Below are positions 33,255-58,301 of a stretch of 64,000 nucleotides of DNA, piece after piece. Source of the stretch: a virus; the IMG/VR virus record IMGVR_UViG_3300020123_000219, positions 24,199 through 88,198 of that record; one strand, written 5' to 3'. The notes beneath the pieces are model-generated. The model saw only the letters and a program-made list of their open reading frames with translations. It had not been told where the DNA came from and ran no database searches. Positions within the stretch are counted from its first letter, which is position 1; each line of letters begins with the position of its first letter. Made by a program: the position numbers and the translations under genes.

Positions 33255-35075
33255 TTAGCCTGCGGTCCCCCACGGCCCGTCGGACATGTAGTCCTCCGGA
33301 ACCCCGTGCTCGGTGAAAGCCTTGCAGGTAGCCGGGCGGACCTCGGCCATGCGTGCCTTCAGCCGATCCGTCCCGCTCTCGGCGAGCCACGGCCACGGCA
33401 CGGTCTTGCCCGCCTGCAGCGCCGTGATCAGCCGGAACGCCGCGTCAGTCAGGCCGCCGAACGTGTGCCGGTTCGACCCGCCCGACGGCAGCGCCCCGGT
33501 CTTGTACCCGGCGAAGTTCCACATGTACACCGGGACGGTCTTCGGGATCAGGTCATCGATCAGGGTCTCGCTCATGCTGTTCGCCGCGATGCTGCGCCCG
33601 TACTGGATGCAGTTCGACGGAAGCCACCCCGGCCGGGTCTGCTCGTCAGTCAGGATCACGACCTCCGTGTGGTACGGCTTCAGGTGATCCCGCACCGCCG
33701 CCGGGATATCAGTCCCGCCCGGAGCGGGCTTCACGGAGAACTTCTCCATGATCTTCAGCACCGACTCGCCCTTCCCGAACGGCACCGGCTTCGAATGCGC
33801 CCAGAACTCCGCCAGGTCCGCGTTATCCGCCCGCACCGCCAGCGCGGCGCCGAACAGCGCAGCAGCATCCGCCCAGTCCATGTCCGAATGCTCCGTCATC
33901 TTGTACGCCCACATCGACGGGGACCGGTCCACCAGGACCAGCGGGCGCCGCAGCGGAGTCACGTTCGCCAGCGACGCGTCCAGCGCCTTCTCCAGCGGCC
34001 ACGCCCACCGCAGCGACGGCGCGTTCCTGTACGCAAGCCAGAACGCGAACGGGAACTCACCCGACCGCGCGACCGCCTCCGGGTCGGCCAGACGGGCAGC
34101 CACCTTCGCGGCGACCGCGTCCGAGATCCCGGCCCGGTCGAAGTTCGCGAGGTTCCGCCGCAGTGCCATGTACGGCATCGACGGGATCGCCGCCTCCCAC
34201 TTCCCGGCAGTCATCTCGCCATGCGACGCGGCCCGCTCCCACGTCATCCCCGCCTTCTTAGCCGACTCAGCCGTGATCTTCGACGGATCGCGCATCAGCC
34301 GCTTGTTCTGCCGCAGAACCCGCAGCACTGCCGGGATCTCCGCGTCCTGGTCGTGGCGCCGCGCGATCAGGTACTTCCACAGCACCGCACGGTACGCCGG
34401 GTCGCCCTCGCAGCCCGGAGCGTGATGCCCCAGCGCGCCGCACAGGTAGCACGTGCCGCGAGACGTGGCGTTGTACCGCGCGTTGACGATCTCGATCACG
34501 TCACCGAACCGGACCGCAGCCGACGGAGTATCGTACTTCGCGACCGCGTACTCCGTGTACAGGCGCGGCAGCGCATCGGCGATGCCGCGCTTCAGGCCCT
34601 TCGGCATGGTGTTCCGGCCGTACTTGGTGATCCAGTACGCGATCAGCTCGCCTGGCTCGTCACCGCGCTGCAGGACAGCGTCGGTCACCTTCCGGACCGT
34701 CCACTCCTGAGGGTCGGCGCGGTAACGTGCCTCTTCCTTGCGTGCCTGCGCGAACTCGGCTGCGCCGTACACCGGCCCGAGCCGCAGGTTCCCGCCATCG
34801 CGTGCCCGCAGGTAGTTCAGCAGGCCACCGGCCCAGTCAGGGTCCGTGCTGGCGTTCGCGCGCACCAGCTCCGTCCACCGGGCCACCCGGGCGTCCTTGC
34901 CCTCGTGCAGGGTCTTTTCGTCCGGCATGTAGCACGACGCCAGCACGTACAGCTCTGACTTCAGGTCCCGCAGGTAGCCCTGCGCGCCCAGTGCGGTCTT
35001 CGCGTCCGGCGCAGCCTCGGAGAAGACCGGCGACGACGGCAGGGTCGTGACCCTGCCCCTGTTGTACCGCGACAT
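33255..35075 (-). CDS. rsr: Ro60/Rsr TROVE-domain RNA-binding protein
   Basis: YLRARDGGNLR, RGDEPGE, KGLKRGIADA, YAVAKYD, MTWE, MPYMALRRNLANF, PFAFWLAY; vWA LVDRSPSM, GGTD, ILTDEQ. Confidence 0.92.
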   Translation of the reverse strand: MSRYNRGRVTTLPSSPVFSEAAPDAKTALGAQGYLRDLKSELYVLASCYMPDEKTLHEGKDARVARWTELVRANASTDPDWAGGLLNYLRARDGGNLRLGPVYGAAEFAQARKEEARYRADPQEWTVRKVTDAVLQRGDEPGELIAYWITKYGRNTMPKGLKRGIADALPRLYTEYAVAKYDTPSAAVRFGDVIEIVNARYNATSRGTCYLCGALGHHAPGCEGDPAYRAVLWKYLIARRHDQDAEIPAVLRVLRQNKRLMRDPSKITAESAKKAGMTWERAASHGEMTAGKWEAAIPSMPYMALRRNLANFDRAGISDAVAAKVAARLADPEAVARSGEFPFAFWLAYRNAPSLRWAWPLEKALDASLANVTPLRRPLVLVDRSPSMWAYKMTEHSDMDWADAAALFGAALAVRADNADLAEFWAHSKPVPFGKGESVLKIMEKFSVKPAPGGTDIPAAVRDHLKPYHTEVVILTDEQTRPGWLPSNCIQYGRSIAANSMSETLIDDLIPKTVPVYMWNFAGYKTGALPSGGSNRHTFGGLTDAAFRLITALQAGKTVPWPWLAESGTDRLKARMAEVRPATCKAFTEHGVPEDYMSDGPWGTAG

Positions 35076-35076
35076 G

Positions 35077-35109
35077 AAAAAGTCCTCCTCGCGTCAGCGG
35101 CGGGAGGAC
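35077..35109 (-). terminator. terminator-like hairpin that contains the Ro60 RBS
   Basis: GTCCTCC...GAGGAGGAC-TTTTT-C-ATG. Confidence 0.6.
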
Positions 35110-35114
35110 GTGCA

Positions 35115-35283
35115 TCAGGTGACCGCGCCCGACAAGAAATGCCGGAAGACATATCAAGGACGGGACTCGAACCCGCGACCTCTACCTGCGTAGGGTAGCG
35201 CTCTTCCAACTGAGCTACCAGCACCGAATGGTGTGCTGTTATTGAAGGAACTCCCGGCGGGCACCCCGGGCGCGGTCATCTGA
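35115..35283 (-). ncRNA. Y RNA (YrlA-like) with tRNA-like module
   Basis: Terminal stem with CCGGGGTGC/TTGTCGG; internal D, anticodon and T arms; adjacent to Ro60. Confidence 0.85.
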
Positions 35284-35291
35284 AGTTATGT

Positions 35292-35377
35292 CCCCTCACC
35301 GACAACAATCGGGAAGCGGCTGTGGTTTCCACTGCGAAGGTGAGAAGTAACCGCTGCCCAGCACCCCGGTGACGGGG
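35292..35377 (-). ncRNA. second, short Y RNA without tRNA module
   Basis: Same CCGGGGTGC, GTTNCTTC and TTGTCGG motifs in a closed stem. Confidence 0.75.
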
Positions 35378-35390
35378 TAGAACGAAAACT

Positions 35391-35419
35391 ACCCTACATT
35401 GGGGAGTGCCGTTATGCAA
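35391..35419 (-). promoter_or_regulatory. sigma70/HrdB-type promoter for the Y RNA-Ro60 unit
   Basis: TTGCAT-N17-TAGGGT just upstream of the short Y RNA. Confidence 0.65.
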
Positions 35420-42938: not shown

Positions 42939-43009
42939 TAACCTCCCGGACGACCAGCCAGATCATGGCCCTGACCATACCATTATGCCCCACAGCGGAA
43001 AAGCCGTCG

Positions 43010-43081
43010 TTGGCCTGGGGAGACTCGAACTCCCGTGTCCGACTTAGGAGGTCGGCGCTCTGTCCCCTGAGCTACAGGCCA
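43010..43081 (-). tRNA. tRNA-Arg(CCT)
   Basis: Cloverleaf; loop CTCCTAA. Confidence 0.9.
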
Positions 43082-43453
43082 ATGCCTGTCAGTCGTCCCC
43101 CGGGCAGTTACTGGCCCCGCACCCGGACGGGCACGTGCAGCTCCACCGGGAGCTATTGCTCCCGCCACAACCCGTATACGGGCAGCCGCCCTCATCCTCA
43201 TGACACATAAACATACGCACCCCGTTTCTCACGGCTTCAGGATCAGGTTAACCGCGCCGAGCGCCATCTCCTCGGCGTCATCAATGGCCAGGTCCACGCG
43301 CACCGTGCCCGCAGCCTGCCTCAGGCACCCGTCCACATCGAACGCCACAGTAACCATTTCCCGTTTCCTTTCCGCTGCGCGGGCACGGACCCCCGGTGGG
43401 GGTCAGATGCACGACGGGGGGAGTCATGCGTCGGGCTGGGAGCCCGTGCCCTG

Positions 43454-43527
43454 TGTCCCTAGGGTGATTCGAACACCCGACCTTTCGCTCCGGAGGCGAA
43501 CGCGCTGTCCATCTGCGCTATAGGGAC
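43454..43527 (-). tRNA. tRNA-Arg(CCG)
   Basis: Cloverleaf; loop CTCCGGA. Confidence 0.9.
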
Positions 43528-43545
43528 TCGCCTATTACATCACAT

Positions 43546-47945: not shown

Positions 47946-48018
47946 CACCCCGCCCTGGACTCGAACCAGGAATCCTCCGGTTAACAGCCGTGCGCCTTGC
48001 CAATTAGGCCAACGGGGT
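47946..48018 (-). tRNA. tRNA-Asn(GTT)
   Basis: Loop CTGTTAA. Confidence 0.9.
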
Positions 48019-48068
48019 ATGTGGATGTGGCTGGTTCCCGGGATCTGGGAACCGGGAACCAGCCACCG

Positions 48069-48143
48069 TAGCGGGGGGCGGATTTGAACCGCCGTTATTC
48101 AGGGTTATGAGCCCTGTGCCATACCGAGCTAGGCGACCCCGCG
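48069..48143 (-). tRNA. initiator tRNA-fMet(CAT)
   Basis: C1:T72 mismatch; GGG/CCC anticodon stem. Confidence 0.85.
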
Positions 48144-48213
48144 TCGCGCCGGGTTCTGGTGACCCACGAACCAGCACTCAGCGTGCTGGCAGGTACCGGC
48201 ATCAGGTTCCTCG

Positions 48214-48284
48214 TAGCGGAGACGGGAATCGAACCCGCGTGATCCTGGGTTATGAGCCCGGATGGCACCAGCAGCCTCCCCGCA
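48214..48284 (-). tRNA. second initiator-type tRNA-Met(CAT), reduced D arm
   Basis: T1:T72 mismatch; GGG-CTCATAA-CCC. Confidence 0.75.
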
Positions 48285-48290
48285 CGACTA

Positions 48291-48319
48291 AATATACAGC
48301 CCGCGTGCCTATCTGTCAA
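48291..48319 (-). promoter_or_regulatory. sigma70-type promoter inside tRNA array
   Basis: TTGACA-N17-TATATT. Confidence 0.75.
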
Positions 48320-48700
48320 CCTTTTCGTCACACGTGTTCGTGGGGGATGCCGAGCAGGTCCAGCGCCTGCTCCAGCAGGTCCGCCGGGTGCATCTCGAAG
48401 TCCCCGTCCCCCGCGAGCGTATATACGGCGTCGCTGTCGATCAGCAGCGGCCCTCTGACCGTCCCGGCTGCCAATGCTTCCCGCAGTTCGCGGAGAGTCC
48501 TGTACTGGCTCACAGCCCGTACCTCGGGCATTCCAGGAAGTCAGCGACTGACACGTGGACCCAGCCGATCACTACCCCGTCGCGGCCTGGGTACGGGCGG
48601 AGCGGGAACCCGCACCCAGGGCACGGCTTCGTCTTCCGGGCAGGTTCGGCTGCCACGTCGTCCTGATACTTGATGGTCAATGGTTTCTTCCTTTCCTGAG

Positions 48701-48775
48701 CAGCGCAGACGGGACTTGAACCCGCAAGCTCCGGGGTGAAGGCCCGGCGGCTCTGACCGTTTCGCCTACTGCGCC
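48701..48775 (-). tRNA. tRNA-Glu(TTC), non-canonical
   Basis: CCGGG-CCTTCAC-CCCGG (C33). Confidence 0.75.
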
Positions 48776-48776
48776 C

Positions 48777-48853
48777 TGGCACCCCCAACCGGATTTGAAC
48801 CGGTGATCTCCTGACTGAGAATCAGGTGTCCTAGACCGCTAGACGATGGGGGC
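48777..48853 (-). tRNA. tRNA-Glu(CTC)
   Basis: Loop TTCTCAG; CCA encoded. Confidence 0.9.
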
Positions 48854-48861
48854 GTGAACCT

Positions 48862-49329
48862 TTACTTCAGCTTGTCGAGGTAGTCGAACAGCGCCTTGTT
48901 CTCCTCGCCGGCGATGGTGCGCACATCGTCGCAGCCGCTGTCACACTCGTATCTGATGCCCACGGGCGGATACGCGTCCAGGTCGGCGTGCCTGACTATC
49001 CGGGCTGGTTTCCGGCAGTCACGGCAGAACGACCCCGGTTCGCGGTCCCGGACCTTGATCCGGTCGGGCAGCATGCCGAGGAATTCCAGGGCCTGCGCGG
49101 TGTGCCGGTCGTACTCGGTGTCCAGGAACCTCGTCCCGAACTTCTCGCGGATGCCGATGAACCCGCCGCCTGATGGCTGGTCACTGTCATACACCCCGAA
49201 CGGCAGGTTCCTGGACCGCAGCCGGTACACGCCGCCCCTGGCCAGGGGCACCAGGCTGTCCTGCGGCTCCCCGACCCACGGCGGCCTGCCCGGGTCAGTC
49301 ATGTACTTCCGTACCGCCTCGTCGCTCAC
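48862..49329 (-). CDS. hypothetical protein
   Basis: GGGAAGGG RBS; YRLRSRNL..GVY...GFIGIREKFG..FLDTEY. Confidence 0.65.
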   Translation of the reverse strand: MSDEAVRKYMTDPGRPPWVGEPQDSLVPLARGGVYRLRSRNLPFGVYDSDQPSGGGFIGIREKFGTRFLDTEYDRHTAQALEFLGMLPDRIKVRDREPGSFCRDCRKPARIVRHADLDAYPPVGIRYECDSGCDDVRTIAGEENKALFDYLDKLK

Positions 49330-49440
49330 CGGGCAGTTCCCTTCCCTCTTGAAAGCTGAGGTGCCTTTTGTCGACCCGGGAAAGCACCGAACCCGGCTAA
49401 GGTACTGTCCCCGCTAAGGGACTTACTGCGCAGTACCCCG

Positions 49441-49513
49441 CGCGCCAGGAGGGAATTGAACCCCCGTGAAGTCACTTAGAAGGCGACCGCGTCATCCGCT
49501 ACGCTACTGGCGC
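49441..49513 (-). tRNA. tRNA-Arg(TCT)
   Basis: Loop CTTCTAA. Confidence 0.9.
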
Positions 49514-49602
49514 TAATGATGAAGAATAATGAGGATAACGAACCCGGCTATGATCATCAGCCCGAAAATCAGGCTCGCAGGATCATCACCGTCCATCCCT
49601 TG

Positions 49603-49674
49603 TCCTCCGCCCGGGACTCGAACCCGGATCTCTGGAATTAAAAGTTCCGCACACGGCCTTTGTGCTAACGGAGG
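49603..49674 (-). tRNA. tRNA-Lys(TTT)
   Basis: Loop CTTTTAA. Confidence 0.85.
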
Positions 49675-49727
49675 GAGCTAAGGACACCCATCCGTTTAAA
49701 TCTCCGTTCCATTCTGCCTCCTGCTTG

Positions 49728-49801
49728 TAGCGGCGCCCGGTATCGAACCGGGGACCTTCCGGTTATGGGCCGGACGCTCTCGCCACCTGAGCTACGCCGC
49801 C
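49728..49801 (-). tRNA. elongator tRNA-Met(CAT) (Ile2 not excluded)
   Basis: Loop CCCATAA (C33). Confidence 0.8.
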
Positions 49802-49903
49802 TCGCGCCTCAACCTGTCCCTGCAGTGCACCCGCAGCCCTGGCAGTCGCACTTGCATCCCGGCCTGCACTCACAGGTCCAGCCCGTGCTGACCGCACGAT
49901 ACG

Positions 49904-49977
49904 TGGGCGCGGATGGATTTGAACCATCGGCCTTCCGGTTATCAGCCGGATGCTCCACCAGACTGAGCTACGTGCCC
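49904..49977 (-). tRNA. tRNA-Ile(GAT)
   Basis: Loop CTGATAA. Confidence 0.9.
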
Positions 49978-49978
49978 G

Positions 49979-50066
49979 TGGCGGCGGGTGCGTGGTTCGA
50001 ACACGCGGGGCTGTCACACCCGGTTGCTTTCAAGGCAACTGCATTAGGCCGCTCTGCCAACCCGCC
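49979..50066 (-). tRNA. tRNA-Ser(TGA)
   Basis: Long variable arm; CCA encoded. Confidence 0.9.
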
Positions 50067-51138
50067 TCAGACCTTCACGTACCGCATCTCCCCGTCGGTG
50101 AAGCGGCGCGACACCAGGCCCCGGGCCTTCAGAGCCGCCAGCGACGCCGCCACCCGCTCCGGGTCCAGCCTCACCGCCGACGCTAGCTCATCCTCGGTCA
50201 TCGGCTTCACCGCCAGCGCCGTCAGGATCAGCTGCCCGTTCCCCGACACCTTCGCCGTCATCATCGGCCGCCTTCCCGTTCTCGCTGAACCAGACCACCG
50301 CCGCAGCAAGACCATCCTCGACCAGGTCACACTCGACGTAGCAGCCCCGGCCCTTCAGGTCACCGCACGTGACCTCGGCCTTCACCGCCGACCACTGGTC
50401 GGTATACAAGCCGGTGATCTCCGCTGAATGCTCCCACCACAGCCACTGCACCACGCACGTCAGGAAAGTCGCGTCCGTGGCCGTCAGCGCGATCTCCCCG
50501 GGGTTAGCCATGATCTCCCGCGCCCGCGCCATCAACGCATCAGCAGCCGCACCGCCCTCCTCATCATGACGGCACTCCATCGGCAGGCGGAGAATCCCCT
50601 GCTGCTCAGCCATTCCCGTTCCCTTCACAACGCCCGAAATCCGGCAACACGCCCGCCGACGGCGGCCACCACCACTCCGGAAAAGGCAGCCCGCGCCACG
50701 ACGTAGCGGAAGCCACCTCACCCACAAGCTCACGAACACCCGCGTCCACGCGGCCCTCCGCACTGAACGCCCTGATCAGCATCCACTGCGTCAGGTAATC
50801 GCAGACACGGTCACCGAACTCGATCTCCTCAAGCTCCGTCTCCGCGCTCAGCCACCCCACCCAGACACCAGCAAGATGCTCAGCCATTCCCGTTTCCTTT
50901 CCACCGTTCCCGCACCAGCTCGCACCCCGAACAGCCACACGGCTCGCCCTCGCGCTCCACATGATTGAAGAACACCGGCAGCAGGTAACACGCGCACACA
51001 TCAGGGTCATGCCGGGCAACATCAACCCACACGCCACTCACCCACGAGAACCGCATCGCCAGCTCAGCCCGGTAACCCAGCTCAGTCAGCTCCGGCTCAT
51101 GCGCCTGCCACAACCCGGCCATCAATTCCCTTTCCCGC

Positions 51139-51226
51139 TGGCGGAAGCCGGAGTACTCGAAACCCAGCCCTTTCGGACCCTGCCGCTTTCGAGGCGGAGC
51201 CGGTGCGCCTGCCCGGTTCAGCTTCC
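51139..51226 (-). tRNA. tRNA-Ser(CGA), atypical D/T arms
   Basis: Loop CTCGAAA; long variable arm; CCA encoded. Confidence 0.8.
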
Positions 51227-51316
51227 ATGCGTTGGTGATATGACGCAGTCAGCGGCTTCACTTCCGCCGGGTCGCTGCTGAGTAGCTGACACGTTGCCCA
51301 GGGCTGCGTCATATCG

Positions 51317-51400
51317 CGGATGACGGAGTATTCGAAACTCACCCCTTGCGGAGCCATCTCGCTTCCAACGAGAGCCGAGCGCCTGCCCGGTTCATCATCC
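51317..51400 (-). tRNA. tRNA-Ser(GGA), atypical D/T arms
   Basis: Loop TTGGAAG; long variable arm. Confidence 0.8.
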
Positions 51401-51403
51401 AGA

Positions 51404-51820
51404 TTATTCCACGTGCGCCCAGATCTTACGCTGGCGTATCAGGCGTATGTTCTTTTCGTCAACGCCGACCATTCTGGCGATTTGCCGGTGCGGCAAATCT
51501 GAGACGCGGATCTCCCTGACCAGTTGCGCTGTGAGCTTCGCCGCCCCGTTCTGCTCTCCCCTGACTACCTCGGTCTTCGATTTAGCCTTGTGGCAGGTCT
51601 CGCACAGGGCGCGGCATTTAGCCAGCTCGGCCTCGCGGCGGGCTTTCGACCATGACCAGACCACGTGGTGGACCTTGGTGGCCGGGTCGACGTGATCTAG
51701 TTCCAGGTCGTCCCATGAGCCGCAGAGCGCGCAAGGGCCGTTCTCGGCGAACCACTCGGCACGGCGAGCGGCCATCCACTGCCGCTGGTACTCGCGTTTC
51801 TTCTCTCCCGTGTAGCCCAT
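51404..51820 (-). CDS. HNH endonuclease with C-terminal HTH
   Basis: CALCG...LELDHVDP...CRALCETCH; RGEQNGAAKLT. Confidence 0.85.
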   Translation of the reverse strand: MGYTGEKKREYQRQWMAARRAEWFAENGPCALCGSWDDLELDHVDPATKVHHVVWSWSKARREAELAKCRALCETCHKAKSKTEVVRGEQNGAAKLTAQLVREIRVSDLPHRQIARMVGVDEKNIRLIRQRKIWAHVE

Positions 51821-51847
51821 GCGGAGACGTTACCACTGAACTAGCGG

Positions 51848-51931
51848 CGGAGAGCGGGTTACTCGAAAACCACACCCGGAAGTGCGCACTCGTTAGCAGC
51901 GAGGCCCGGTACCCTGACCGGTTCACTCTCC
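51848..51931 (-). tRNA. tRNA-Ser(GCT), atypical D/T arms
   Basis: Loop CTGCTAA; long variable arm. Confidence 0.8.
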
Positions 51932-52466
51932 ATTACCGTGACCCGGGCCACGGGCATTCTTCCTGTGAGTGCCAGCCGGGCATCCGGTCGGCGACGTGCC
52001 GGTACCGGCAGTGCGCGGGTCCGGACCTGCAGATGAACCTGCAGGGCTGGACGCAGTCGGGGAGGGCGTTGACGGCGGCGACGATCAGGGCCGCGTACTC
52101 GGGTTTGTCGACGAGCCCTATGAGGGGGTCGCCGTCGTCAGGTTCGGGGCCGAGCTGCCGGTACAGCGTCCTCGGTATCTTCCGGCCCTGCCGCAGGCTC
52201 ATCGTGAGCCTCAGTTTCAGTGTCATCACGGTGCCCGTCGCACGCCCACAGGTGGGTAAATATATTGTATTTCAGCCAGCCTGAGTGCTGGCCGCCGAGC
52301 GGGCAGGCCGGGTCGTCGTCGCGGTCGTGGGAGCACAGGCGCGGTGCCCCGCTTTCGGTGGACCAGAACCGGTGCCGGGCGTCGGGGTAGGTGTAGCGGG
52401 CGCAGTTCCGGTTGCCGTCCGTCATCCACCTGACCATAACCTGTTCCTTTCCCTGTGCCATTACCG

Positions 52467-52539
52467 AAGCCCCTGCGGGAGTCGAACCCGCGTAAAACGG
52501 CTTTGCAGGCCGTTACCTCAGCCGCTCGGTCAAGGGGCC
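52467..52539 (-). tRNA. tRNA-Cys(GCA)
   Basis: Loop CTGCAAA; U73. Confidence 0.9.
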
Positions 52540-52636
52540 GAGCGCCCTGTTCGCCCCGCCATCACGCGGGTACTGGGGGGCTTTGGTCGCGACACCGTCT
52601 AGCCCCCGCCAGCCACAGGACATCAGCTGGCGTTCG

Positions 52637-52721
52637 TACGCGCGGAGAGAGTTGAACTCTCACGACCCTCCCAGGTCACCGGCACCTGAAGCCGGCGCGT
52701 CTGCCATTCCGCCACGCGCGC
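52637..52721 (-). tRNA. tRNA-Leu(CAG)
   Basis: Loop TTCAGGT; long variable arm. Confidence 0.9.
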
Positions 52722-52730
52722 ATGTTCGAG

Positions 52731-52802
52731 AGGGGCTGACGGATTTCGAGACCGCGACCTCGGCGTTGGCAACGCCGCGCTCTGCCGCTGAGCTACAACC
52801 CC
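52731..52802 (-). tRNA. tRNA-Gly(GCC), atypical T loop
   Basis: Loop TTGCCAA; T loop CTCGAAA. Confidence 0.8.
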
Positions 52803-52871
52803 GAGGGGAGGACACGCGGCCCCGGCGGGAACTCCCCGCACTGCGCAGCCAGCGTAGCCGCGTGTCCTTCG

Positions 52872-52942
52872 AGCAGGCGGCGAGGATCGAACTCGCGCGG
52901 CCACCTTGGGAAGGTGGCATGCTACCGCTACATCACGCCCGC
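52872..52942 (-). tRNA. tRNA-Gly(CCC)
   Basis: Loop TTCCCAA. Confidence 0.9.
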
Positions 52943-53098
52943 ATGATCCGGTTTTAGACGCCGGGACCGGTAACCCAGGCACTGCGCCGCGTTTTCTGGT
53001 AAGCGGGAACGCCTCTGTGCGCGGAACGCGAACCGCTGCGTGCAATGCCATGTTTAATAAGGGAGAACCATCTCGGCACGCAGAACCCTATCTCCCTG

Positions 53099-53171
53099 AG
53101 CCCCTACCCCGAATTGAACGGGGGACCTTTTCATTACCATTGAAATGTTCTGCCGACTGAACTATAGGGGC
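53099..53171 (-). tRNA. tRNA-Thr(GGT)
   Basis: Loop ATGGTAA. Confidence 0.9.
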
Positions 53172-53224
53172 GTGCTGGCCGGGCGGGCAAGCCCCCTAAC
53201 GGAATCCCGCCCGGCCGCGTTCTG

Positions 53225-53638
53225 CTACTCGTTGTCCTCGCTGTACTCGCCGTACTTCTTCGTGTACGACGCGGAGGCGTAGCTGTTGGACAGCTTGGCC
53301 CACTGCCGCTTCCACTCCCAGTCGTCATTGACGTACCGGGCAGCGTCAGCCTCGGCGAGTTCGATGATGTTGTTGCCCGCTTCCTTGTGCATCTTCAGCA
53401 TGCCGATGACACGGTCATAGTCGCGGGTGTGGTCGGTCGGCTCGGTCAGCGACACGTAAAGGCTCACGCCCCGCTTCCCGGCCCTGATCTTCTCGATCCG
53501 GTCGGCGAGCGCCTTCTCTGCGGCCTTCTTGTATCCGTCGAGCGCGTCCTCGAACACGGCCCGGTGCTTGTCACGGTTCTCGGTGACCTTAGCCATCAGG
53601 TCATCAACCTTCGCGTCAATGCTGAACGCCAATGCCAT
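53225..53638 (-). CDS. hypothetical helical protein
   Basis: GGAAAGG RBS; ENRDKH...PTDHTRDYDRVIGML...YVNDDWEW. Confidence 0.75.
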   Translation of the reverse strand: MALAFSIDAKVDDLMAKVTENRDKHRAVFEDALDGYKKAAEKALADRIEKIRAGKRGVSLYVSLTEPTDHTRDYDRVIGMLKMHKEAGNNIIELAEADAARYVNDDWEWKRQWAKLSNSYASASYTKKYGEYSEDNE

Positions 53639-53901
53639 TCCTTTCCTGTTCCAGTGCCGCTTCGAGCTGGTCATGGCGCACGAACGTGCGCTTCCGGCCC
53701 TTCCTCAGCCACAGCACCACCTGATTCGCCGCCGTCGCGGCCTGAGCAGCCTCCCGCACGCCCTTCAAAGGCGCGGGCTGCACCTGCTTCTTCTTCGTCC
53801 CGTTCCCCGCATGCCGCCGGGTATGGGACTTACCCGAGTGCACGTTGTGCTTGTCCCGCACCGGGATCTGCACCGGCCCGTCCATTACCTTATCCTTTCC
53901 G

Positions 53902-53973
53902 CTCGCGGAGGTGGATTCGAACCACCACAGCCGGCACCAAAGACCGGCGTCCTCGCCGTTAGACCATCCGCGA
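53902..53973 (-). tRNA. tRNA-Gln(TTG)
   Basis: T1-A72; loop CTTTGGT. Confidence 0.9.
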
Positions 53974-53977
53974 CCAG

Positions 53978-54049
53978 CGCCCCATGCCGGTGCCGACCCG
54001 GCTCCCTTCCGCTTACAGGGCGGTTGCGCTGCCGTTGCGCCAATGGGGC
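53978..54049 (-). tRNA. tRNA-Thr(TGT), non-canonical
   Basis: Loop CCTGTAA (C33); T loop GTCGGCA. Confidence 0.75.
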
Positions 54050-54055
54050 CTTAGG

Positions 54056-54139
54056 TGTGCGAGGAGGGACTCGAACCCTCATGACCTTGCGGTCACATGG
54101 ACCTCAACCATGCGCGTCTGCCAGTTCCGCCACAAGCAC
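54056..54139 (-). tRNA. tRNA-Leu(GAG)
   Basis: Loop TTGAGGT; long variable arm. Confidence 0.9.
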
Positions 54140-54144
54140 ATGAG

Positions 54145-54217
54145 AGCCCCTGGTCCGACTCGAACGGACTACCTGCGCTTTACGAGAGCGCCGCTCTGCC
54201 CGATGAGCTACAGAGGC
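54145..54217 (-). tRNA. tRNA-Thr(CGT)
   Basis: Loop CTCGTAA. Confidence 0.9.
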
Positions 54218-54222
54218 ATGGG

Positions 54223-54295
54223 CTGCCGGGGCAAGATTCGAACTTACATTTACATGAACCAGAATCATGCGTCTTGCCAATTAGACGACCCGGCA
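54223..54295 (-). tRNA. tRNA-Gln(CTG)
   Basis: Loop TTCTGGT. Confidence 0.9.
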
Positions 54296-54300
54296 TTGCG

Positions 54301-54384
54301 TGCGCGAGGCGAGAATCGAACTCGCAAGCCCGTCAGGGCACCCGTACTTGAGGCGGGCGCGTCTGCCTGTTCCGCCACTCGCGC
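54301..54384 (-). tRNA. tRNA-Leu(CAA)
   Basis: Loop CTCAAGT; long variable arm. Confidence 0.9.
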
Positions 54385-54520
54385 TGGAGCACCAACATCC
54401 CGTGCCGGATTACGGCGGAAGGGCCTTTCCGCTTTCATCCCGGGAAGGCGGGGGAAGGTAACCAACCATGAATCCCGCTTTGACCCTTCCCTCCCGAGGC
54501 CGCCGGGAAAGAACCGGGTA

Positions 54521-54597
54521 TGGTGCGCCGTGAGAGACTTGAACTCCCAACTCTTCCCTTAAGAGGGGAAAACTCTAGCCAATTGAGTTAACGGCGC
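54521..54597 (-). tRNA. tRNA-Lys(CTT)
   Basis: Loop CTCTTAA; CCA encoded. Confidence 0.9.
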
Positions 54598-55038
54598 TAG
54601 CACAAACTCGTCAATCTTGATCAGCTTGCTTTTATACTGCTTTCCCGCGAGCCTGCAACCCGGGCACTTGCATTTTTTGTACAGATACATTCGCGGTGTG
54701 CCGTGGGCGTATGAGTCATCAGGGATCTTATTGCTCCCGCCGCCGAATTCGCGGTTCTCGCTTGTTTTCTCAACGTGATGCCCGTGGCAGAGGAGCTGGC
54801 ATTTCCTTATCTCTGCCCAGAACCGTTCCTCCGAGGAGGTCCACATGCCTCCCTTGCCGCCTCGCATGCGACGGTCTGCCGTGGACGCATAGATATGATC
54901 GATTTCCAGGTTCTCGGCGGTTCCGCACCGCACGCACTTCCCGCCCAGGAAGGCGATTGCTTCTGCTCGGCGTTTCGCGTATTTCTGCCGCATGTACGCG
55001 GCCATGTACTCGTTGTACGAGGCGCGATCCCGGACCAC
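54559..55038 (-). CDS. HNH endonuclease
   Basis: LGGKCVRCG...LEIDH...KCQLLCHGHH; HGT...CKCPGC; stop codon lies inside tRNA-Lys. Confidence 0.85.
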   Translation of the reverse strand: MVRDRASYNEYMAAYMRQKYAKRRAEAIAFLGGKCVRCGTAENLEIDHIYASTADRRMRGGKGGMWTSSEERFWAEIRKCQLLCHGHHVEKTSENREFGGGSNKIPDDSYAHGTPRMYLYKKCKCPGCRLAGKQYKSKLIKIDEFVLAPLTQLARVFPS

Positions 55039-55063
55039 GAGTCTAAGATAGCACGCTCTTACG

Positions 55064-55135
55064 AGTCCCGTACCGGAATCGAACCGGTCTCCCGTGGGTG
55101 GAAGCCACGTGCACTAGCCGATGTGCTAACAGGAC
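55064..55135 (-). tRNA. tRNA-Gly(TCC)
   Basis: Loop CTTCCAC. Confidence 0.9.
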
Positions 55136-55324
55136 GTGAAAGTGCCCCTCCGCCCGTTGCCGGGCTGAGCGCTCCTGGCCCGGCTCGCTGGTGCGCGCGG
55201 GCGGAGGGGCGGGGAGGGAGCGCGGTGCGCGTTGGCCTGCAGTGCCCTCACCGCGCAGGTGATCAGCCCTTCCCGGCCTTAGCGGTTCAGCCCGCTGTAC
55301 CGGTTCAGCCTCCCCAGATCTGTG

Positions 55325-55624
55325 TTACTCGCCTGCGGCCTGCTTCAGGCTGACGTTGGCGCGCTCGTTGAGGAGCGCGCCGCCACGGAACTTGACGACG
55401 TGCTTCTCCGGGACCGCGACCTTGCCTCCCGTAGCGGGATTGTGGGTTTCCCGGGCCGCGCGGAACACCCGCTCGAACACCCCGAACCCGGCAAGGGATA
55501 CCTTCTCGCCGTCGGCGACAGCGCGGGAGATCCCGTCGAGGATGGTGCGGACCACCCGCTGGGCCTCGGACTTCGGCATGCCGTGCTCGCCTGCGACGTG
55601 CTCGGCTAGGTCTGTCATGTTCAT
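55325..55624 (-). CDS. hup: HU family DNA-binding protein
   Basis: MNMTDL...GEKVSLAGFGVF...RAARETHNPATG...VKFRGG.LL. Confidence 0.9.
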   Translation of the reverse strand: MNMTDLAEHVAGEHGMPKSEAQRVVRTILDGISRAVADGEKVSLAGFGVFERVFRAARETHNPATGGKVAVPEKHVVKFRGGALLNERANVSLKQAAGE

Positions 55625-55671
55625 GATAGGTTTTTCCTCTTCCTGGCCGGGCTACGTTGCTGCCCGTGCCG

Positions 55672-55745
55672 TGGCCGCTACCCGGATCGAACGGGTGCCC
55701 TTCCGCTTTTCAGGCGGACGCTCGTGCCGACTGAGCTAAACGGCC
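55672..55745 (-). tRNA. tRNA-Phe(GAA)
   Basis: Loop CTGAAAA. Confidence 0.9.
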
Positions 55746-55879
55746 TTGCCTGCCCTCATCTGCCCCGCGTGAACGCCGCGATCAGGACGATCACCGCGAT
55801 TCCCCAGACGACCCATTCCAGGGTCCCCCAGTTATCGGAGATCTTCCCCGGCCCGACCTTAACTGTGAGCGGGCCTATC

Positions 55880-56026
55880 CTATAGCAGCGCGGTTCTTTC
55901 TCCAAGCCTATGTTCCTTTCCCTCGCGGCTGGTGCCCCCGAGGCAGGTGCAGCCGTCGCACCAGCACCGGCACCGCAGCGAGCACCAGCAAAGCTTCGAG
56001 GGACCGCAGCACTTATCCCCGCTCAC
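55880..56026 (-). CDS. Cys-rich microprotein
   Basis: KCCGPSKLCWCSLRCRCWCDGCTC; coupled GTG start. Confidence 0.5.
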   Translation of the reverse strand: MSGDKCCGPSKLCWCSLRCRCWCDGCTCLGGTSREGKEHRLGERTALL

Positions 56027-56148
56027 GTTCCCTTCCCCGAAGCCGGGAGGCAGCCGGAGTGGTCGCCGCAGATCAGGCAGCCGCCGCAGGTGCTGCACGG
56101 GTGAAGGCTGCACGTGTGCGGCATGTCGCTGAGCGGGCCGTCTTCCAT
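56023..56148 (-). CDS. Cys-rich microprotein
   Basis: GGGAAAGGG RBS; CSTCGGCLICGDHSGC. Confidence 0.55.
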   Translation of the reverse strand: MEDGPLSDMPHTCSLHPCSTCGGCLICGDHSGCLPASGKGT

Positions 56149-56165
56149 GATGTTCCCTTTCCCTG

Positions 56166-56240
56166 TGGTCGGGAAGCGGAGACTCGAACTCCGTCTTCCT
56201 GCTCCCAAAGCAGGAGCGCTCACCCTTACGCTACATCCCG
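56166..56240 (-). tRNA. tRNA-Pro(TGG)
   Basis: Loop TTTGGGA; CCA encoded. Confidence 0.9.
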
Positions 56241-56284
56241 TTCATCCGGGAGGGCACGGTGAGACCTTCGGCCCGTGCCCTCGG

Positions 56285-56359
56285 TCGGAATGGGCGGATT
56301 CGAACCGCCGGCCTCCGCGTCCCGAACGCGGCGCGCTAACCAAGCTGCGCTACATTCCG
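56285..56359 (-). tRNA. tRNA-Pro(CGG)
   Basis: Loop TTCGGGA. Confidence 0.9.
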
Positions 56360-56370
56360 TCCCCTGCGGG

Positions 56371-56457
56371 TCATCTCCCGCAGCCGCTGTGGTCGCGCAC
56401 GCAGACCACGCACTGGTGGCACCACCTGCACTCGCACTGGGCGCATACGTGCGCCAT
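56371..56457 (-). CDS. 28-aa Cys-rich microprotein
   Basis: AGGAGG RBS; MAHVCAQCECRWCHQCVVCVRDHSGCGR. Confidence 0.55.
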   Translation of the reverse strand: MAHVCAQCECRWCHQCVVCVRDHSGCGR

Positions 56458-56491
56458 CGTGCCTCCTTCCGTCATGTGGCCGCGCTACTGC

Positions 56492-56584
56492 TCACCTGCT
56501 GCTGCATTCGCAGTTCCTGCACCTGCACTTGACGCCGCAGCTGCAGCCGACCATGTTCTCGCAGCAGGGGTCCTTGCCTTCCAC
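56492..56584 (-). CDS. 30-aa metallothionein-like microprotein
   Basis: AAAGGA RBS; MEGKDPCCENMVGCSCGVKCRCRNCECSSR. Confidence 0.55.
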   Translation of the reverse strand: MEGKDPCCENMVGCSCGVKCRCRNCECSSR

Positions 56585-56604
56585 ATCCTTTTCCTTTCCC
56601 TTAG

Positions 56605-56724
56605 CGGGCGCTGGCCGAATCGGACGGCCTCCTCGCGGGCAGTGCATCCCGCGCGTGCTGACGGCCCCTCAGGGCAGCCCGCGACTGGCCATCGCGACCA
56701 GCCGCGCCTTCACACTCAGCACCC
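56605..56724 (-). ncRNA. tRNA-like RNA with enlarged central domain
   Basis: GGGTGCT/AGCGCCC acceptor-like stem; T arm GGCCG-TCCGATT-CGGCC. Confidence 0.55.
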
Positions 56725-56865
56725 CTGACCAGGCCAGTCCTCCCGGGAGTCTGCCCCGGCCGTCGCGGTCCTGCGCACAGCCCCTGCACGCGGGTACCGC
56801 TTGCGTGCTCCCCGCAGGGTCTCCGCCCGGCGTGAACCTGGGCGCGGGAAGCACGCCGCCTCTCG

Positions 56866-57558
56866 TCAGCCGCTGAGCCCGGCCATGAGGATCAGGTCGC
56901 GGGCCAGCTCGGCGGGGTCGGTGACGGAGTCGAACGCCATGACCTTGACGTGCTTAGGGTTGGCCTGCTCGGCTCCCTGATAGGACGCGAGGGTCTTGTC
57001 GTGGGCGTCGCCGTGGCCGACGACCGCGACCGCGAAGTACCGGTCCGGGTTCGCCGCCGACAGCACCCCCGCGAATTCCTGCCAGTCAGTGGCCTCCCCG
57101 TCAGTGCAGACCAGGCACAGCAGCACGGGCGGCTCGGTCTCGTCCCCGAACTCGGAGTTGAAGTCCGCGAGCGCTGCCTTCCACGCGGGCATGATCGTGG
57201 TCCCGCCGCCCCACCGGATGCCCTGCCACTTGCGGGCGAAGTTCGAGGAGTTGAAGTCCCCCAGCTCGGTGTGGACGCTGGAGAACCCGTGGACCAGCAG
57301 CCCGCCCATCTCGTCGGACCCGCCTGCCTGCTCGGCGGCGGCCTCGGAGTCCTCTTTCTCCAGGGCGGCGACGAACAGCGGCATGGCCTCGCCGACGACT
57401 TCGCGGCGGGGTATCCCGCTGCCCTCGGCTGCCTCCCAGTTCATCGAGTCGGAGGTGTCGAGCAGGCAGATGACTTCCTTGTTGCGCCACGCGGGCACGA
57501 GCGGCTTCTCCACTCGCGGTGCCTGCGACGGCAGCTGTGCCTCAGTCAAGAGGGGCAT
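56866..57558 (-). CDS. stand-alone vWA domain protein
   Basis: MIDAS LLDTSDSM, GGGT, TDGEATD. Confidence 0.85.
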   Translation of the reverse strand: MPLLTEAQLPSQAPRVEKPLVPAWRNKEVICLLDTSDSMNWEAAEGSGIPRREVVGEAMPLFVAALEKEDSEAAAEQAGGSDEMGGLLVHGFSSVHTELGDFNSSNFARKWQGIRWGGGTTIMPAWKAALADFNSEFGDETEPPVLLCLVCTDGEATDWQEFAGVLSAANPDRYFAVAVVGHGDAHDKTLASYQGAEQANPKHVKVMAFDSVTDPAELARDLILMAGLSG

Positions 57559-57759
57559 TCCTTTCCAGTTTGTTACGGCGGGGCCGGGCCGCACCCGTGA
57601 GCCAGCACGGGAACTAGCCCTGCTTGCAGATGCGCCTCGGCTGCTTCGCGGCCCGGCCCCTTAATACCCCGCCAGTCCCGGGGGACGGCGGGGAGCAATG
57701 AGGAAGATCCCGTTTGCGTATCCGGGTCTACCCGGGCCGATTGCGACCGGGATCTTCCG

Positions 57760-57831
57760 TGGAGCTGGCGGTGATTGAAACCGCGACATCCTGCATGCAA
57801 AGCAGGCACTCTGCCACTGAGTTACAGCCCC
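57760..57831 (-). tRNA. tRNA-Ala(TGC)
   Basis: G3:U70; loop TTTGCAT. Confidence 0.9.
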
Positions 57832-57907
57832 TTGATGCCGGCCTCTGCCATTGAGGTACCGCCCCGTGAGTGAAGCGGACGGGACTCGAACCCGCAACTT
57901 CCGGCCG
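57832..57907 (-). ncRNA. circularly permuted tRNA-like RNA with Ala identity
   Basis: 3' half (T arm, CCGCTTC-A) precedes 5' half (GGGGCGG, D arm); GCCGG/CCGGC closes the ends. Confidence 0.8.
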
Positions 57908-57979
57908 TGGAGCCAGGGTGAATCGGACACCCGACCTCTTCCGTGCGAAGGAAGCGCGCTGCCACTGCGCTATGGCCCC
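57908..57979 (-). tRNA. tRNA-Ala(CGC)
   Basis: G3:U70; loop TTCGCAC; T loop TCCGATT. Confidence 0.88.
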
Positions 57980-58229
57980 ATTTGCGCCTGCTGCCGCCTT
58001 TACCGTGTATACCGACATGGAGGGGGCGGCAGCAGGCGTCCCGTACCGTGCCCCCTACAGAAGAGGCGCGGGCCGGGAGTCTTGCTGTCCCGCCACGGCG
58101 TGTATACGCGGAGGCGGGACGTTTACACCGGATGTAAACGTTTACTTGCGGCGTTTACTCCGGTGTGGCTTTTCCGCTGTGGAGTTCTCAAGGTTCGGTC
58201 ACATTCCCCCCCGGAGGGGTGGTGATCCG

Positions 58230-58301
58230 CCCGGATGCCAGGAGTCGAACCTGGATTTGCCCGGTTTTGGAGACCGGGTGCCTAGCCGCTGGCTCATCCG
58301 A
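58230..58301 (-). tRNA. tRNA-Trp(CCA)
   Basis: Loop CTCCAAA. Confidence 0.85.

What the first reader, a model, noticed from the sequence alone, without database searches (positions are those of the whole stretch)
33255..58301. Candidate phage tRNA-mimic / RNA-surveillance system
Seen together in one genome arm: Ro60 with a zinc knuckle, two Y RNAs, a free permuted tRNA with YrlA-like topology but no Ro stem, another tRNA-like RNA, a stand-alone vWA protein and 40 tRNAs, many with altered loops. Established: bacterial Ro60/Y RNA is linked to RNA damage responses and PNPase, and phage tRNAs can offset host tRNA-cleaving defences. Inference: these form a replace-plus-decoy counter-defence whose modules are split across loci. 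No RtcB, Rnl ligase or CCA-adding gene was recognised in this window.
Basis: inference. Interest (0 to 1): 0.8.

Follow-up and report, generated by a model that had tools for sequence, protein, structure and literature searches.

The report
Phage Ro60, Y RNAs, tRNA mimics
A soil actinophage carries a Ro60 protein with two partner Y RNAs, about 40 tRNA genes and two unusual tRNA look-alikes; the parts are real and some are new variants, but I found no evidence that they work together as one anti-defence system, and the neighbouring vWA protein looks unrelated.

Summary
There is a true Ro60 with a rare CCHC zinc knuckle. Two Y RNAs lie just upstream of it, and their stems covary with those of Y RNAs in relatives. 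A 75-nt anticodon-less, circularly permuted tRNA-like RNA with alanine identity marks sits exactly between two tRNA-Ala genes. There is also a stand-alone vWA-fold protein and about 40 tRNA genes. Only the "other tRNA-like RNA" (56605-56724) could not be supported.

Ro60 with tRNA-mimicking Y RNAs in phages is already published, so the core is a known kind. In 7 of 10 related phage genomes the Ro60/Y RNA module lies within about 2.5 kb of a tRNA gene, often inside a tRNA array. Two relatives have 0-1 tRNA, so the array is not required.

The vWA protein has no homologue in 50,697 phage records. Its bacterial homologues lie near neither Ro60 nor tRNAs. No RNA ligase, RtcB or CCA-adding enzyme was found in the 88-kb record (78% complete). 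A seryl-tRNA synthetase and a borderline PNKP-type phosphatase were found.

Three details are new: a Y RNA enclosing a complete four-arm tRNA, the free alanine-type mimic, and the zinc knuckle. The "replace-plus-decoy" reading stays untested. This scan has noted similar phage Ro60/tRNA-array RNAs on other DNA.

The parts
33255..35075 (-). Ro60 (TROVE + vWA/MIDAS), 606 aa, with a unique roughly 40-aa C-terminal tail
   Evidence: Pfam TROVE 2e-14. phiLo Ro60 by phmmer 1.5e-20. All 13 best Foldseek PDB hits to the AF2 model are Ro60. 1503 homologues at E<=1e-20.
34410..34451 (-). CCHC zinc knuckle (CX2CX4HX4C) within a roughly 19-residue insertion in the TROVE domain, aa 209-222
   Evidence: Translation. 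Absent from 12 phage Ro60s. Present in 4 of 122 homologues, at 95%, 81% and 54% identity, always at the same site. pLDDT is low here.
35077..35109 (-). Hairpin GUCCUCC/GGAGGAC followed by a U-tract. It buries the Ro60 Shine-Dalgarno sequence and may end the Y RNA transcript.
   Evidence: Read from the sequence. Analogous anti-SD hairpins lie before Ro60 in L006, L015 and L019.
35113..35284 (-). Y RNA B: long stem, Ro-type internal-loop module and an enclosed tRNA-like domain
   Evidence: MFE fold z -3.5. Module motifs. L017 is 98% identical and all 8 substitutions inside B fall in loops.
35160..35238 (-). Four-arm tRNA-like domain of Y RNA B. The order is sealed acceptor hairpin (its loop encodes N73-CCA), D arm, anticodon arm (ACG), T arm.
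   Evidence: Rfam tRNA 45.6 bits at 35152-35224. ARAGORN does not call it. Sequence reading. CCA is kept in L017 while 4 other loop bases change.
35297..35371 (-). Y RNA A: small, YrlB-like, with a UUACUUC motif and no tRNA-like domain
   Evidence: Aligns with small Y RNAs of L006, L015, L018 and L019. Covariation is well above controls.
43009..58301 (-). Array of about 40 tRNA genes covering all 20 amino acids, interspersed with HNH endonucleases, an HU-like protein and small ORFs
57832..57906 (-). Free, circularly permuted, anticodon-less tRNA-like RNA. It has G3:U70 and A73, and it abuts tRNA-Ala(cgc) and tRNA-Ala(tgc).
   Evidence: Sequence. MFE is the permuted cloverleaf. Rfam YrlA 32 bits. 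Its 5' half closely matches tRNA-Ala(tgc). Identical in two other soil studies.
56866..57594 (-). Stand-alone vWA-fold protein with MIDAS motif DTSDS. It is probably host-derived and not part of the Ro60 module.
56605..56724 (-). Candidate third tRNA-like RNA (unconfirmed)
   Evidence: T-arm-like hairpin found by motif scan. Folds. No Rfam hit.

Best explanation
This is a phage RNA island made of separable pieces, not one dedicated system.

(a) Ro60 with two Y RNAs forms a ribonucleoprotein of the type already known in actinobacteria and phages. Ro60 is inferred to bind the conserved helix, internal loop, helix module of each Y RNA. By analogy with Deinococcus and Salmonella RYPER and with Thermus phage phiLo, the particle most likely engages host RNA-decay enzymes such as PNPase, or handles misfolded or damaged RNA during infection.

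(b) The roughly 40 tRNAs form a self-sufficient decoding set. It either supplements host tRNAs or replaces those that host defences cleave.

(c) Y RNAs and tRNAs tend to lie together in phages. I infer that this is because both are transcribed as RNA-gene arrays and matured by tRNA-processing enzymes. In this phage a portal, MuF, lysin and HNH block separates them.

(d) Two mimics are new variants: Y RNA B's complete tRNA, opened between the T stem and the acceptor stem, and the free alanine-type element. I infer that RNase P cuts both in the sealed acceptor loop. That would give two-piece molecules with a tRNA-like CCA end, as shown for M. smegmatis YrlA.

(e) The vWA gene is a host-derived passenger.

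Shown here: sequences, folds, homology, covariation, gene neighbourhoods. Inferred: binding, processing, partners, role in infection.
For: Ro60 identity rests.

Y RNA family membership and covariation rest.

Y RNAs lie next to Ro60 in most relatives examined. Good YrlA hits lie within about 1.2 kb of Ro60.

Ro60 lies in or beside tRNA arrays in most relatives.

For Y RNA B, the close variant L017 differs only in loops and keeps CCA.

The free element has a canonical T loop, G18G19, an A15:U48 Levitt pair, a 7-bp acceptor stem with G3:U70 and A73, and C74 encoded as in most of the array's tRNAs.

The vWA protein is unlinked.
Against: I have no expression, processing or binding data for this phage.

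The Rfam YrlA model does not reach its gathering score on any of the three RNAs.

The free element is a single case. It has no divergent relative, so there is no covariation for it.

The record is only 78% complete, so a ligase or CCA enzyme could lie in the missing part.

SerRS and a PNKP-type phosphatase elsewhere in the record, and an RNA ligase next to Ro60 in phage Kela, fit a closer link to tRNA repair than I assume.
Confidence: 0.6

Rival explanations
1. One reading: one integrated counter-defence. The tRNA array replaces cleaved host tRNAs. The Y RNAs, the free permuted tRNA and the other mimic act as decoys for tRNA-targeting nucleases. Ro60 and the vWA protein act as the surveillance or clearance arm.
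For: Ro60, Y RNAs and tRNA arrays lie together in most relatives. Y RNA B keeps a complete anticodon arm that could mimic tRNA-Arg(ACG). Four tRNAs have C33. Phage tRNAs are known to evade anticodon nucleases (PMC10264068, PMC11555353). Defences that cut tRNA tails exist (PMC12851939), and an anticodon-less mimic with an acceptor end could in principle distract them.
Against: Ro60 with Y RNAs occurs with 0-1 tRNA in VanLee and G003. The vWA protein is absent from all phage records and is unlinked in bacteria. No ligase, RtcB or CCA enzyme is in the record. The free element has no anticodon loop, so it cannot act as a decoy for anticodon nucleases. No functional data exist.
Confidence: 0.15
2. 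The Ro60/Y RNA module is an RNA-repair platform for cleaved tRNAs. It would work with the PNKP-type phosphatase and with a ligase that lies in the unsequenced 22% of the genome or is borrowed from the host.
For: A HAD_PNKP phosphatase domain protein lies at record 21070-21702 (27.6 bits, exactly at the cut-off) and SerRS at 16591-17871. Kela has an annotated RNA ligase directly upstream of Ro60. Iyer et al. 2021 place phage TROVE proteins among RNA-repair systems (PMC7824862).
Against: No ligase was found with PF01139, PF09414 or the Kela ligase as query. Among the Ro60 loci examined, only Kela has an annotated ligase beside Ro60. The phosphatase hit is borderline and lies about 36 kb from Ro60.
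Confidence: 0.15
3. The free permuted element is a functionless by-product of recombination between tandem tRNA genes, for example after cuts by the HNH endonucleases in the array. It would be excised only as spacer debris.
For: Its 5' half is 26/29 identical to the start of tRNA-Ala(tgc). Its 3' half is 27/30 identical to tRNA-Glu(ttc) and shares its T arm with Y RNA B. No second example was found in 10 related genomes. Three HNH genes lie in or near the array.
Against: Its boundaries are exact: it starts 1 nt after C74 of one tRNA and ends 5 nt before G1 of the next. All four helices are intact. The D stem carries a compensatory change relative to tRNA-Ala(tgc) (C10-G25 against A10-U25). The tertiary pairs and the G3:U70/A73 marks are kept.
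Confidence: 0.25

Closest known systems
Bacterial and phage Rsr(Ro60)-YrlA/YrlB ribonucleoproteins (Chen et al. 2014, PMC4201824; Rfam RF02553)
   Same: The Ro60 gene is preceded by two or more Y RNAs. One carries a tRNA-like domain and one is small. There is a stem plus internal-loop Ro module. The lineage is actinobacterial. The M. smegmatis YrlA precedent for RNase P cutting and CCA addition applies.
   Different: None of the three RNAs reaches the RF02553 gathering score. Y RNA B has the order acceptor, D, anticodon, T, with a full anticodon arm, in place of T, acceptor, D. The module has an extra G (CCGGGGUGC). The free element has the YrlA core order but no Ro module, and it lies 22.7 kb from Ro60.
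Thermus phage phiLo Ro60 with Yrl1/Yrl2 and host PNPase (PMC12135203; PDB 9L5Y/9KOP)
   Same: It is the closest solved structure. It is phage-encoded and has two Y RNA-like genes upstream.
   Different: Identity is only about 22%. phiLo Ro60 has no zinc knuckle in the alignment.
Deinococcus radiodurans Yrn1
   Same: According to Chen et al. 2014, Yrn1 has the order D-like, anticodon-like arm, T arm. That is the same direction as in Y RNA B.
   Different: In Yrn1 the Ro stem takes the place of the acceptor stem, the loop has 6 nt and the D arm is doubtful. Y RNA B also has a sealed 6-7 bp acceptor hairpin that encodes NCCA.
Phage tRNA arrays as a counter to tRNA-targeting defences (PMC10264068, PMC11555353)
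   Same: This is a large array with some non-canonical anticodon loops.
   Different: I made no comparison with host tRNAs or host nucleases, because the host is unknown. It is probably in Streptosporangiaceae, judged from homologues.
Permuted tRNA genes of Cyanidioschyzon merolae and two-piece (permuted) tmRNA. These comparisons are from my own knowledge and were not tested here.
   Same: The 3' half precedes the 5' half. The alanine identity marks (G3:U70, A73) match the tRNA-like domain of tmRNA. There is a weak Rfam hit to the cyanobacterial permuted tmRNA model (18 bits).
   Different: There is no anticodon loop, no tag reading frame and no pseudoknots, and no circularisation machinery is known here. 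If the two ends were joined they would make a 7-nt loop, AUCAACG, but its C37 and the short variable arm do not fit a real tRNA.

Membership tests
Ro60 / TROVE proteins | TROVE (HEAT-repeat ring) domain | tested here: met
   Pfam PF05731 54 bits against a cut-off of 23. The AF2 model matches Ro60 structures over 537-597 columns.
Ro60 / TROVE proteins | C-terminal vWA domain with a MIDAS motif | tested here: met
   DRSPS, GGTD and TDEQ motifs. The vWA part of the model is confident.
Ro60 / TROVE proteins | Binds Y RNA or misfolded RNA | not testable with these tools
   Needs pull-down or EMSA.
Y RNA (Ro60 partner RNA) | Encoded next to Ro60 | tested here: met
   Y RNAs A and B lie 38-296 nt upstream of the Ro60 start. 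The free element does not meet this; it is 22.7 kb away.
Y RNA (Ro60 partner RNA) | Terminal stem with a conserved internal loop or bulge (the Ro-binding module), supported by covariation | tested here: met
   In A4, 12 of 16 pairs are compensatory, 90.7% of cells are paired against 67.8% in shuffles, and 0 of 500 shuffles reach the observed value. B carries the same motifs. The free element has none.
YrlA (Rfam RF02553) | Reaches the family's gathering score (69 bits) | tested here: not met
   The free element scores 32 bits. A and B give no hit. Relatives score 31-57 bits, also below the cut-off.
YrlA (Rfam RF02553) | tRNA-like domain in the order T arm, sealed acceptor, D arm, inside the Ro stem | tested here: not met
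   B has the order acceptor, D, anticodon, T. The free element has the right order but no Ro stem.
tRNA | Cloverleaf with open acceptor ends and an anticodon loop | tested here: not met
   Free element: the acceptor is sealed and there is no anticodon loop. B: the acceptor is sealed and ARAGORN does not call it, although Rfam tRNA gives 45.6 bits.
vWA domain proteins | Rossmann-like vWA fold with a DxSxS MIDAS motif | tested here: met
   DTSDS. pLDDT 92, and all top Foldseek hits are vWA. Pfam VWA is only sub-threshold.
Phage RNA-repair system (ligase plus end-healing enzymes) | RNA ligase (RtcB or Rnl type) | tested here: not met
   There are no PF01139 or PF09414 hits and no Kela-ligase homologue in the 88-kb record. 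The record is 78% complete.
Phage RNA-repair system (ligase plus end-healing enzymes) | Polynucleotide kinase/phosphatase | tested here: inconclusive
   HAD_PNKP scores 27.6 bits at a cut-off of 27.6. No kinase domain was tested.

The most novel reading that the evidence does not exclude
The 75-nt element is a working, Ro60-independent tRNA mimic. The tRNA operon releases it through RNase P and 3' processing of its neighbours. RNase P then cuts its sealed acceptor loop, and its 3' end is trimmed to A73-C and completed to CCA. AlaRS, which needs only G3:U70 in the acceptor helix, then charges it. The product is a two-piece, anticodon-less Ala-tRNA look-alike. It could distract defences or toxins that recognise the tRNA elbow or acceptor end, or divert AlaRS or EF-Tu. 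Y RNA B would be the Ro60-tethered, arginine-like counterpart, with its CCA end already encoded.
Probability: 0.1. Interest if true: 0.8.

Novelty: new variant of a known kind. Interest (0 to 1): 0.5.

Why it matters
Phage Ro60 has only one experimental study, on phiLo, and its role in infection is unknown. This locus and its relatives show that in actinophages the Ro60/Y RNA unit usually lives among tRNA genes. They also show that its Y RNAs are modular: one shared protein-binding handle carries interchangeable interiors.

Three features here could be tested directly. The first is a Y RNA that encloses a whole tRNA with a pre-encoded CCA. The second is a handle-less alanine-type mimic that published searches would have discarded, because they dropped hits overlapping tandem tRNAs and hits more than 4 kb from Ro60 (PMC4201824). 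The third is a zinc knuckle added close to a histidine that is conserved in all the Ro60 sequences aligned here.

If the mimics are charged or act as decoys, that would be a new way for phages to deal with tRNA-directed immunity. If they do not, the locus still helps annotation. For example, the "tRNA-Arg" genes annotated beside Ro60 in VanLee and GiJojo are probably parts of Y RNAs.

Tried and rejected
- Megablast of 12 kb against phage records found no match.
I therefore could not see the contexts of the knuckle-bearing Ro60s P0003, P0004 and P0022, or of the 56%-identity Ro60 clade on contigs of up to about 154 kb.
- An exact 24-nt pattern from the free element found nothing in viral contigs.
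- The vWA protein found nothing in viral contigs.
- Sequencing runs: no RNA holder was listed. Contigs laid from four soil runs were identical or fragmentary over the element, so they gave no covariation.
- The RF02553 search of ten related genomes found no second handle-less permuted element. Weak distant hits (22-25 bits) fall in tRNA arrays at the score level of tandem-tRNA artefacts, which also ring in control genomes.
- The 56605-56724 "tRNA-like RNA" is not supported by folding or by Rfam.
- Position of the knuckle in 3D: the model is unreliable there (pLDDT about 50) and the tool returns no coordinates. My recollection that the neighbouring conserved histidine matches the cavity histidine of Xenopus Ro60 could not be checked in the papers held.
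- The Burroughs and Aravind 2016 paper on RNA-repair systems is not held.
- I considered and rejected the idea that the stand-alone vWA is a split-off Ro60 domain. BLASTP shows no similarity.
- I did not use complex prediction, because I do not claim that the vWA protein and Ro60 bind.

Full report
**Source and layout**

The window is bases 24199-88198 of an 88,198-bp IMG/VR virus record. The record has 66.5% GC and is 78% complete by CheckV. Every feature in the finding lies on the minus strand.

Read in the direction of transcription, the order is:
- a DNA methylase;
- a tRNA array (58301 down to 43009);
- portal, a MuF-NUDIX fusion, peptidoglycan hydrolases, a DUF397 protein and an HNH endonuclease;
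- two small RNAs;
- Ro60 (35075 down to 33255);
- structural genes.

Homologues of Ro60 and of the vWA protein point to an actinobacterial host, probably in Streptosporangiaceae. That host assignment is an inference.

**Ro60**

The 606-aa protein meets every test I could run:
- It has a Pfam TROVE hit.
- It matches the Thermus phage phiLo Ro60 by sequence.
- It has the MIDAS motif DRSPS.
- Its AF2 model (pLDDT 78) has 13 best PDB matches that are all Ro60 structures, from phiLo, Xenopus, human and Deinococcus.

The knuckle CYLCGALGHHAPGC lies in an insertion of about 19 residues. The insertion sits next to a histidine that is conserved in all 13 Ro60 sequences aligned, and it is absent from the 12 phage Ro60s in that alignment. 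Among 122 homologues, only four carry a CCHC at this site. These are the window's protein, two close relatives (95% and 81% identity) and one at 54% identity with a different knuckle sequence, CYNCGYDGHRRAHC. Retention of the Cys and His positions across that divergence argues that the knuckle is functional. The model is unreliable in this region, so its position on the ring is unknown.

**The two Y RNAs**

Upstream of Ro60 in relatives lie arrays of two to five small RNAs (L002-L006, L015, L018, L019 and several cultured actinophages). Each array member has the same plan:
- an outer helix;
- an asymmetric internal loop, with GUGC on the 5' side and a U-rich UUG(A/U)U on the 3' side;
- an inner helix;
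- usually the motif UUACUUC;
- an interior that varies between copies.

The window has two such RNAs, A (35297-35371) and B (about 35113-35284). Their 3' loop motif TTNTTGTCGG occurs nowhere else in the 64 kb.

I aligned seven small members from five contigs, including A. RNAalifold returns helix, internal loop, helix, and 12 of 16 pairs show changes on both sides. In the pair count, 90.7% of cells are paired against 67.8% in shuffles. None of 500 shuffles reaches the observed value on any measure, and slid controls give 37-56%. So the "two Y RNAs" are real members of a phage Y RNA family. However, the Rfam YrlA model does not reach its gathering score on them or on the relatives.

**Y RNA B is unusual**

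Inside its Ro module the order is:
- a sealed acceptor hairpin;
- a D arm;
- a full anticodon arm with loop CUACGCA;
- a variable loop;
- a T arm.

This is a whole tRNA opened between the T stem and the 3' acceptor strand. Rfam's tRNA model scores it at 45.6 bits, while ARAGORN rejects it. Canonical YrlA runs T arm, sealed acceptor, D arm (PMC4201824). That is the order found in every relative examined here.

A metagenomic variant, L017, has a Ro60 that is 95% identical. Across the whole RNA region L017 is 98% identical. All eight substitutions within B fall in loops and none falls in a stem. The sealed acceptor loop reads A-CCA-UUCG in the window and G-CCA-UCUU in L017. The CCA is kept while four other loop bases change. 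G15:C48 and G18G19 are present.

**The free permuted element**

The 75 nt between tRNA-Ala(cgc) and tRNA-Ala(tgc) has these parts:
- a 5-bp closing stem, equivalent to an anticodon stem;
- a variable loop;
- a canonical T arm with loop UUCGAGU;
- a 7-bp acceptor helix sealed by ACUCAC;
- U8 and A9;
- a D arm with G18G19.

The cloverleaf is the MFE structure and takes 61% of the ensemble. The z-score is only -1.4, which I attribute to the high GC content.

There is no room for a Ro module, because the neighbouring tRNAs abut the element directly. The acceptor helix carries G3:U70 and A73, the alanine identity marks (established knowledge). An A15:U48 Levitt pair is possible.

The element looks like a chimera:
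- Its 5' half is 26/29 identical to the start of tRNA-Ala(tgc), with a compensatory change in the D stem.
- Its 3' half is closest to tRNA-Glu(ttc).
- Its T arm is identical to that of Y RNA B.

Contigs from two other soil studies span both junctions with no differences, so the element is not an assembly artefact. They add no covariation, however.

In ten related genomes, every good YrlA-type hit lies within about 1.2 kb of Ro60, and each one I inspected carries Ro-module flanks. The handle-less element is therefore so far unique. Chen et al. discarded hits that overlapped tandem tRNAs or lay more than 4 kb from Ro60 (PMC4201824). Elements like this one would have been missed by design.

**tRNAs**

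ARAGORN's default settings give 35 tRNAs. Relaxed settings add three tRNA-Ser and tRNA-Thr(tgt), and Rfam adds tRNA-Gly(gcc). The total is 40, covering all 20 amino acids. Most encode only the first C of the CCA end. Four have C33 in place of U33.

**The vWA protein**

The fold is confirmed: pLDDT is 92 and all top PDB hits are vWA domains. The protein has about 270 homologues at up to 86% identity. Most are in metagenome assemblies and actinobacterial MAGs such as Streptosporangiaceae.

Several results argue against a link to Ro60:
- It has no homologue in any of 50,697 phage records.
- It shows no similarity to Ro60's own vWA domain.
- In 32 bacterial loci it lies near no Ro60, no tRNA and no conserved neighbour.

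One metagenome contig of 66,736 bp seems to hold both a Ro60 (56% identity) and a vWA homologue, judged from matching contig lengths. I could not inspect that contig. I treat the vWA as a host-derived passenger.

**Do the parts travel together?**

Ro60 and Y RNAs do. The tRNA association is looser. Rfam tRNA counts in Ro60 phages are as follows.

| Genome | Rfam tRNAs |
|---|---|
| VanLee | 0 |
| G003 | 1 |
| G001 | 6 |
| Neville | 7 |
| Kela | 12 |
| Quantum | 13 |
| G002 (46% complete) | 26 |
| GiJojo | 27 |
| BRock | 28 |
| Atuin | 28 |

Seven of these ten relatives have a tRNA within about 2.5 kb of Ro60, and several have Ro60 inside the array. So co-location is common but not obligatory. 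The 8-kb separation in this phage is a local rearrangement.

An RNA ligase is annotated next to Ro60 only in Kela among the loci examined. That ligase has no homologue in this record. The record has no RtcB, PF09414 ligase or CCA-enzyme family. It does encode a seryl-tRNA synthetase and a borderline PNKP-type phosphatase outside the window.

**Interpretation**

The best-supported reading is a known kind of phage Ro60/Y RNA particle beside an independent full tRNA set. I infer that the two are linked mainly by shared expression and tRNA-type processing.

The only experimental phage precedent shows Ro60 plus two Y-like RNAs binding host PNPase and damping its activity (PMC12135203). The M. smegmatis precedent shows that a YrlA with a 7-bp acceptor stem is cut by RNase P and receives CCA in vivo (PMC4201824). 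Both B and the free element have the features that process needs. I therefore predict two-piece, CCA-tailed mimics.

The vWA arm is not supported. The anticodon-less element could only distract factors that read the elbow or the acceptor end. The general idea that phage TROVE proteins with tRNA-like partners belong to RNA-damage responses is already published (PMC7824862). Earlier notes of this scan describe similar handle-tagged tRNA mimics among phage tRNA genes on other DNA; I did not test those notes.

**Verdict**

This is a new variant of a known kind. The interest comes from the four-arm Y RNA, the free alanine-type mimic and the zinc knuckle, not from the proposed system.

Noticed in passing
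window 35077-35109 (-); L006 about 2965-2995; L015 about 9965-9995; L019 about 4250-4285: A hairpin whose 3' strand is the Ro60 Shine-Dalgarno sequence (GGAGGAC), followed by a U-tract, lies between Y RNA B and the Ro60 start. Similar anti-SD hairpins precede Ro60 in three relatives. This hints at translational control of Ro60 or at a Y RNA terminator.
   Followed up: partly
window 35389-35523 (-); 56490-56585 (-); 56370-56458 (-): There are small cysteine-rich ORFs of about 30-44 aa (CxxC, CC and CxC runs) with good ribosome-binding sites. One lies just upstream of the Y RNAs and two lie downstream of the vWA gene. They look like metallothioneins or zinc ribbons.
   Followed up: no
L008:2704-2775 (VanLee) and L009:2769-2843 (GiJojo): The tRNA-Arg genes annotated directly upstream of Ro60 are not hit by the Rfam tRNA model. 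They overlap YrlA hits, so they are probably parts of Y RNAs and not tRNAs.
   Followed up: partly
record 16591-17871 (+), outside the window (L020): A phage-encoded seryl-tRNA synthetase is present (tRNA-synt_2b plus Seryl_tRNA_N). The array holds four tRNA-Ser genes, and three of them have weak T arms that only relaxed ARAGORN settings detect.
   Followed up: partly
record 21070-21702 (+), outside the window (L021:3071-3703): A HAD-family protein hits the PNKP phosphatase domain exactly at the Pfam cut-off (27.6 bits).
   Followed up: no
window 54559-55038, 51404-51820, 35826-36401 (all -): Three HNH endonuclease genes lie inside the tRNA array or next to the Y RNAs. They are plausible drivers of rearrangement in the RNA-gene region.
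   Followed up: no
window 53977-54049, 49727-49801, 48700-48775, 47541-47614 (-): tRNA-Thr(tgt), one tRNA-Met(cat), tRNA-Glu(ttc) and tRNA-Val(gac) have C33 in place of the near-universal U33, by ARAGORN's anticodon placement.
   Followed up: no
window 56600-56865 (-): The GC-rich non-coding stretch after the vWA stop folds better than shuffles (z -2.9). It contains the unconfirmed tRNA-like candidate.
   Followed up: partly
window 38737-40965 (-) and 55325-55624 (-): A MuF-like head protein is fused to a NUDIX hydrolase domain, and an HU-family DNA-binding protein is encoded inside the tRNA array.
   Followed up: no
L022:4762-5016 and record 7421-7690 (-): In one actinobacterial MAG, the gene after the vWA homologue is 54% identical to a small protein that this phage encodes 74 kb away from its own vWA gene.
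   Followed up: no
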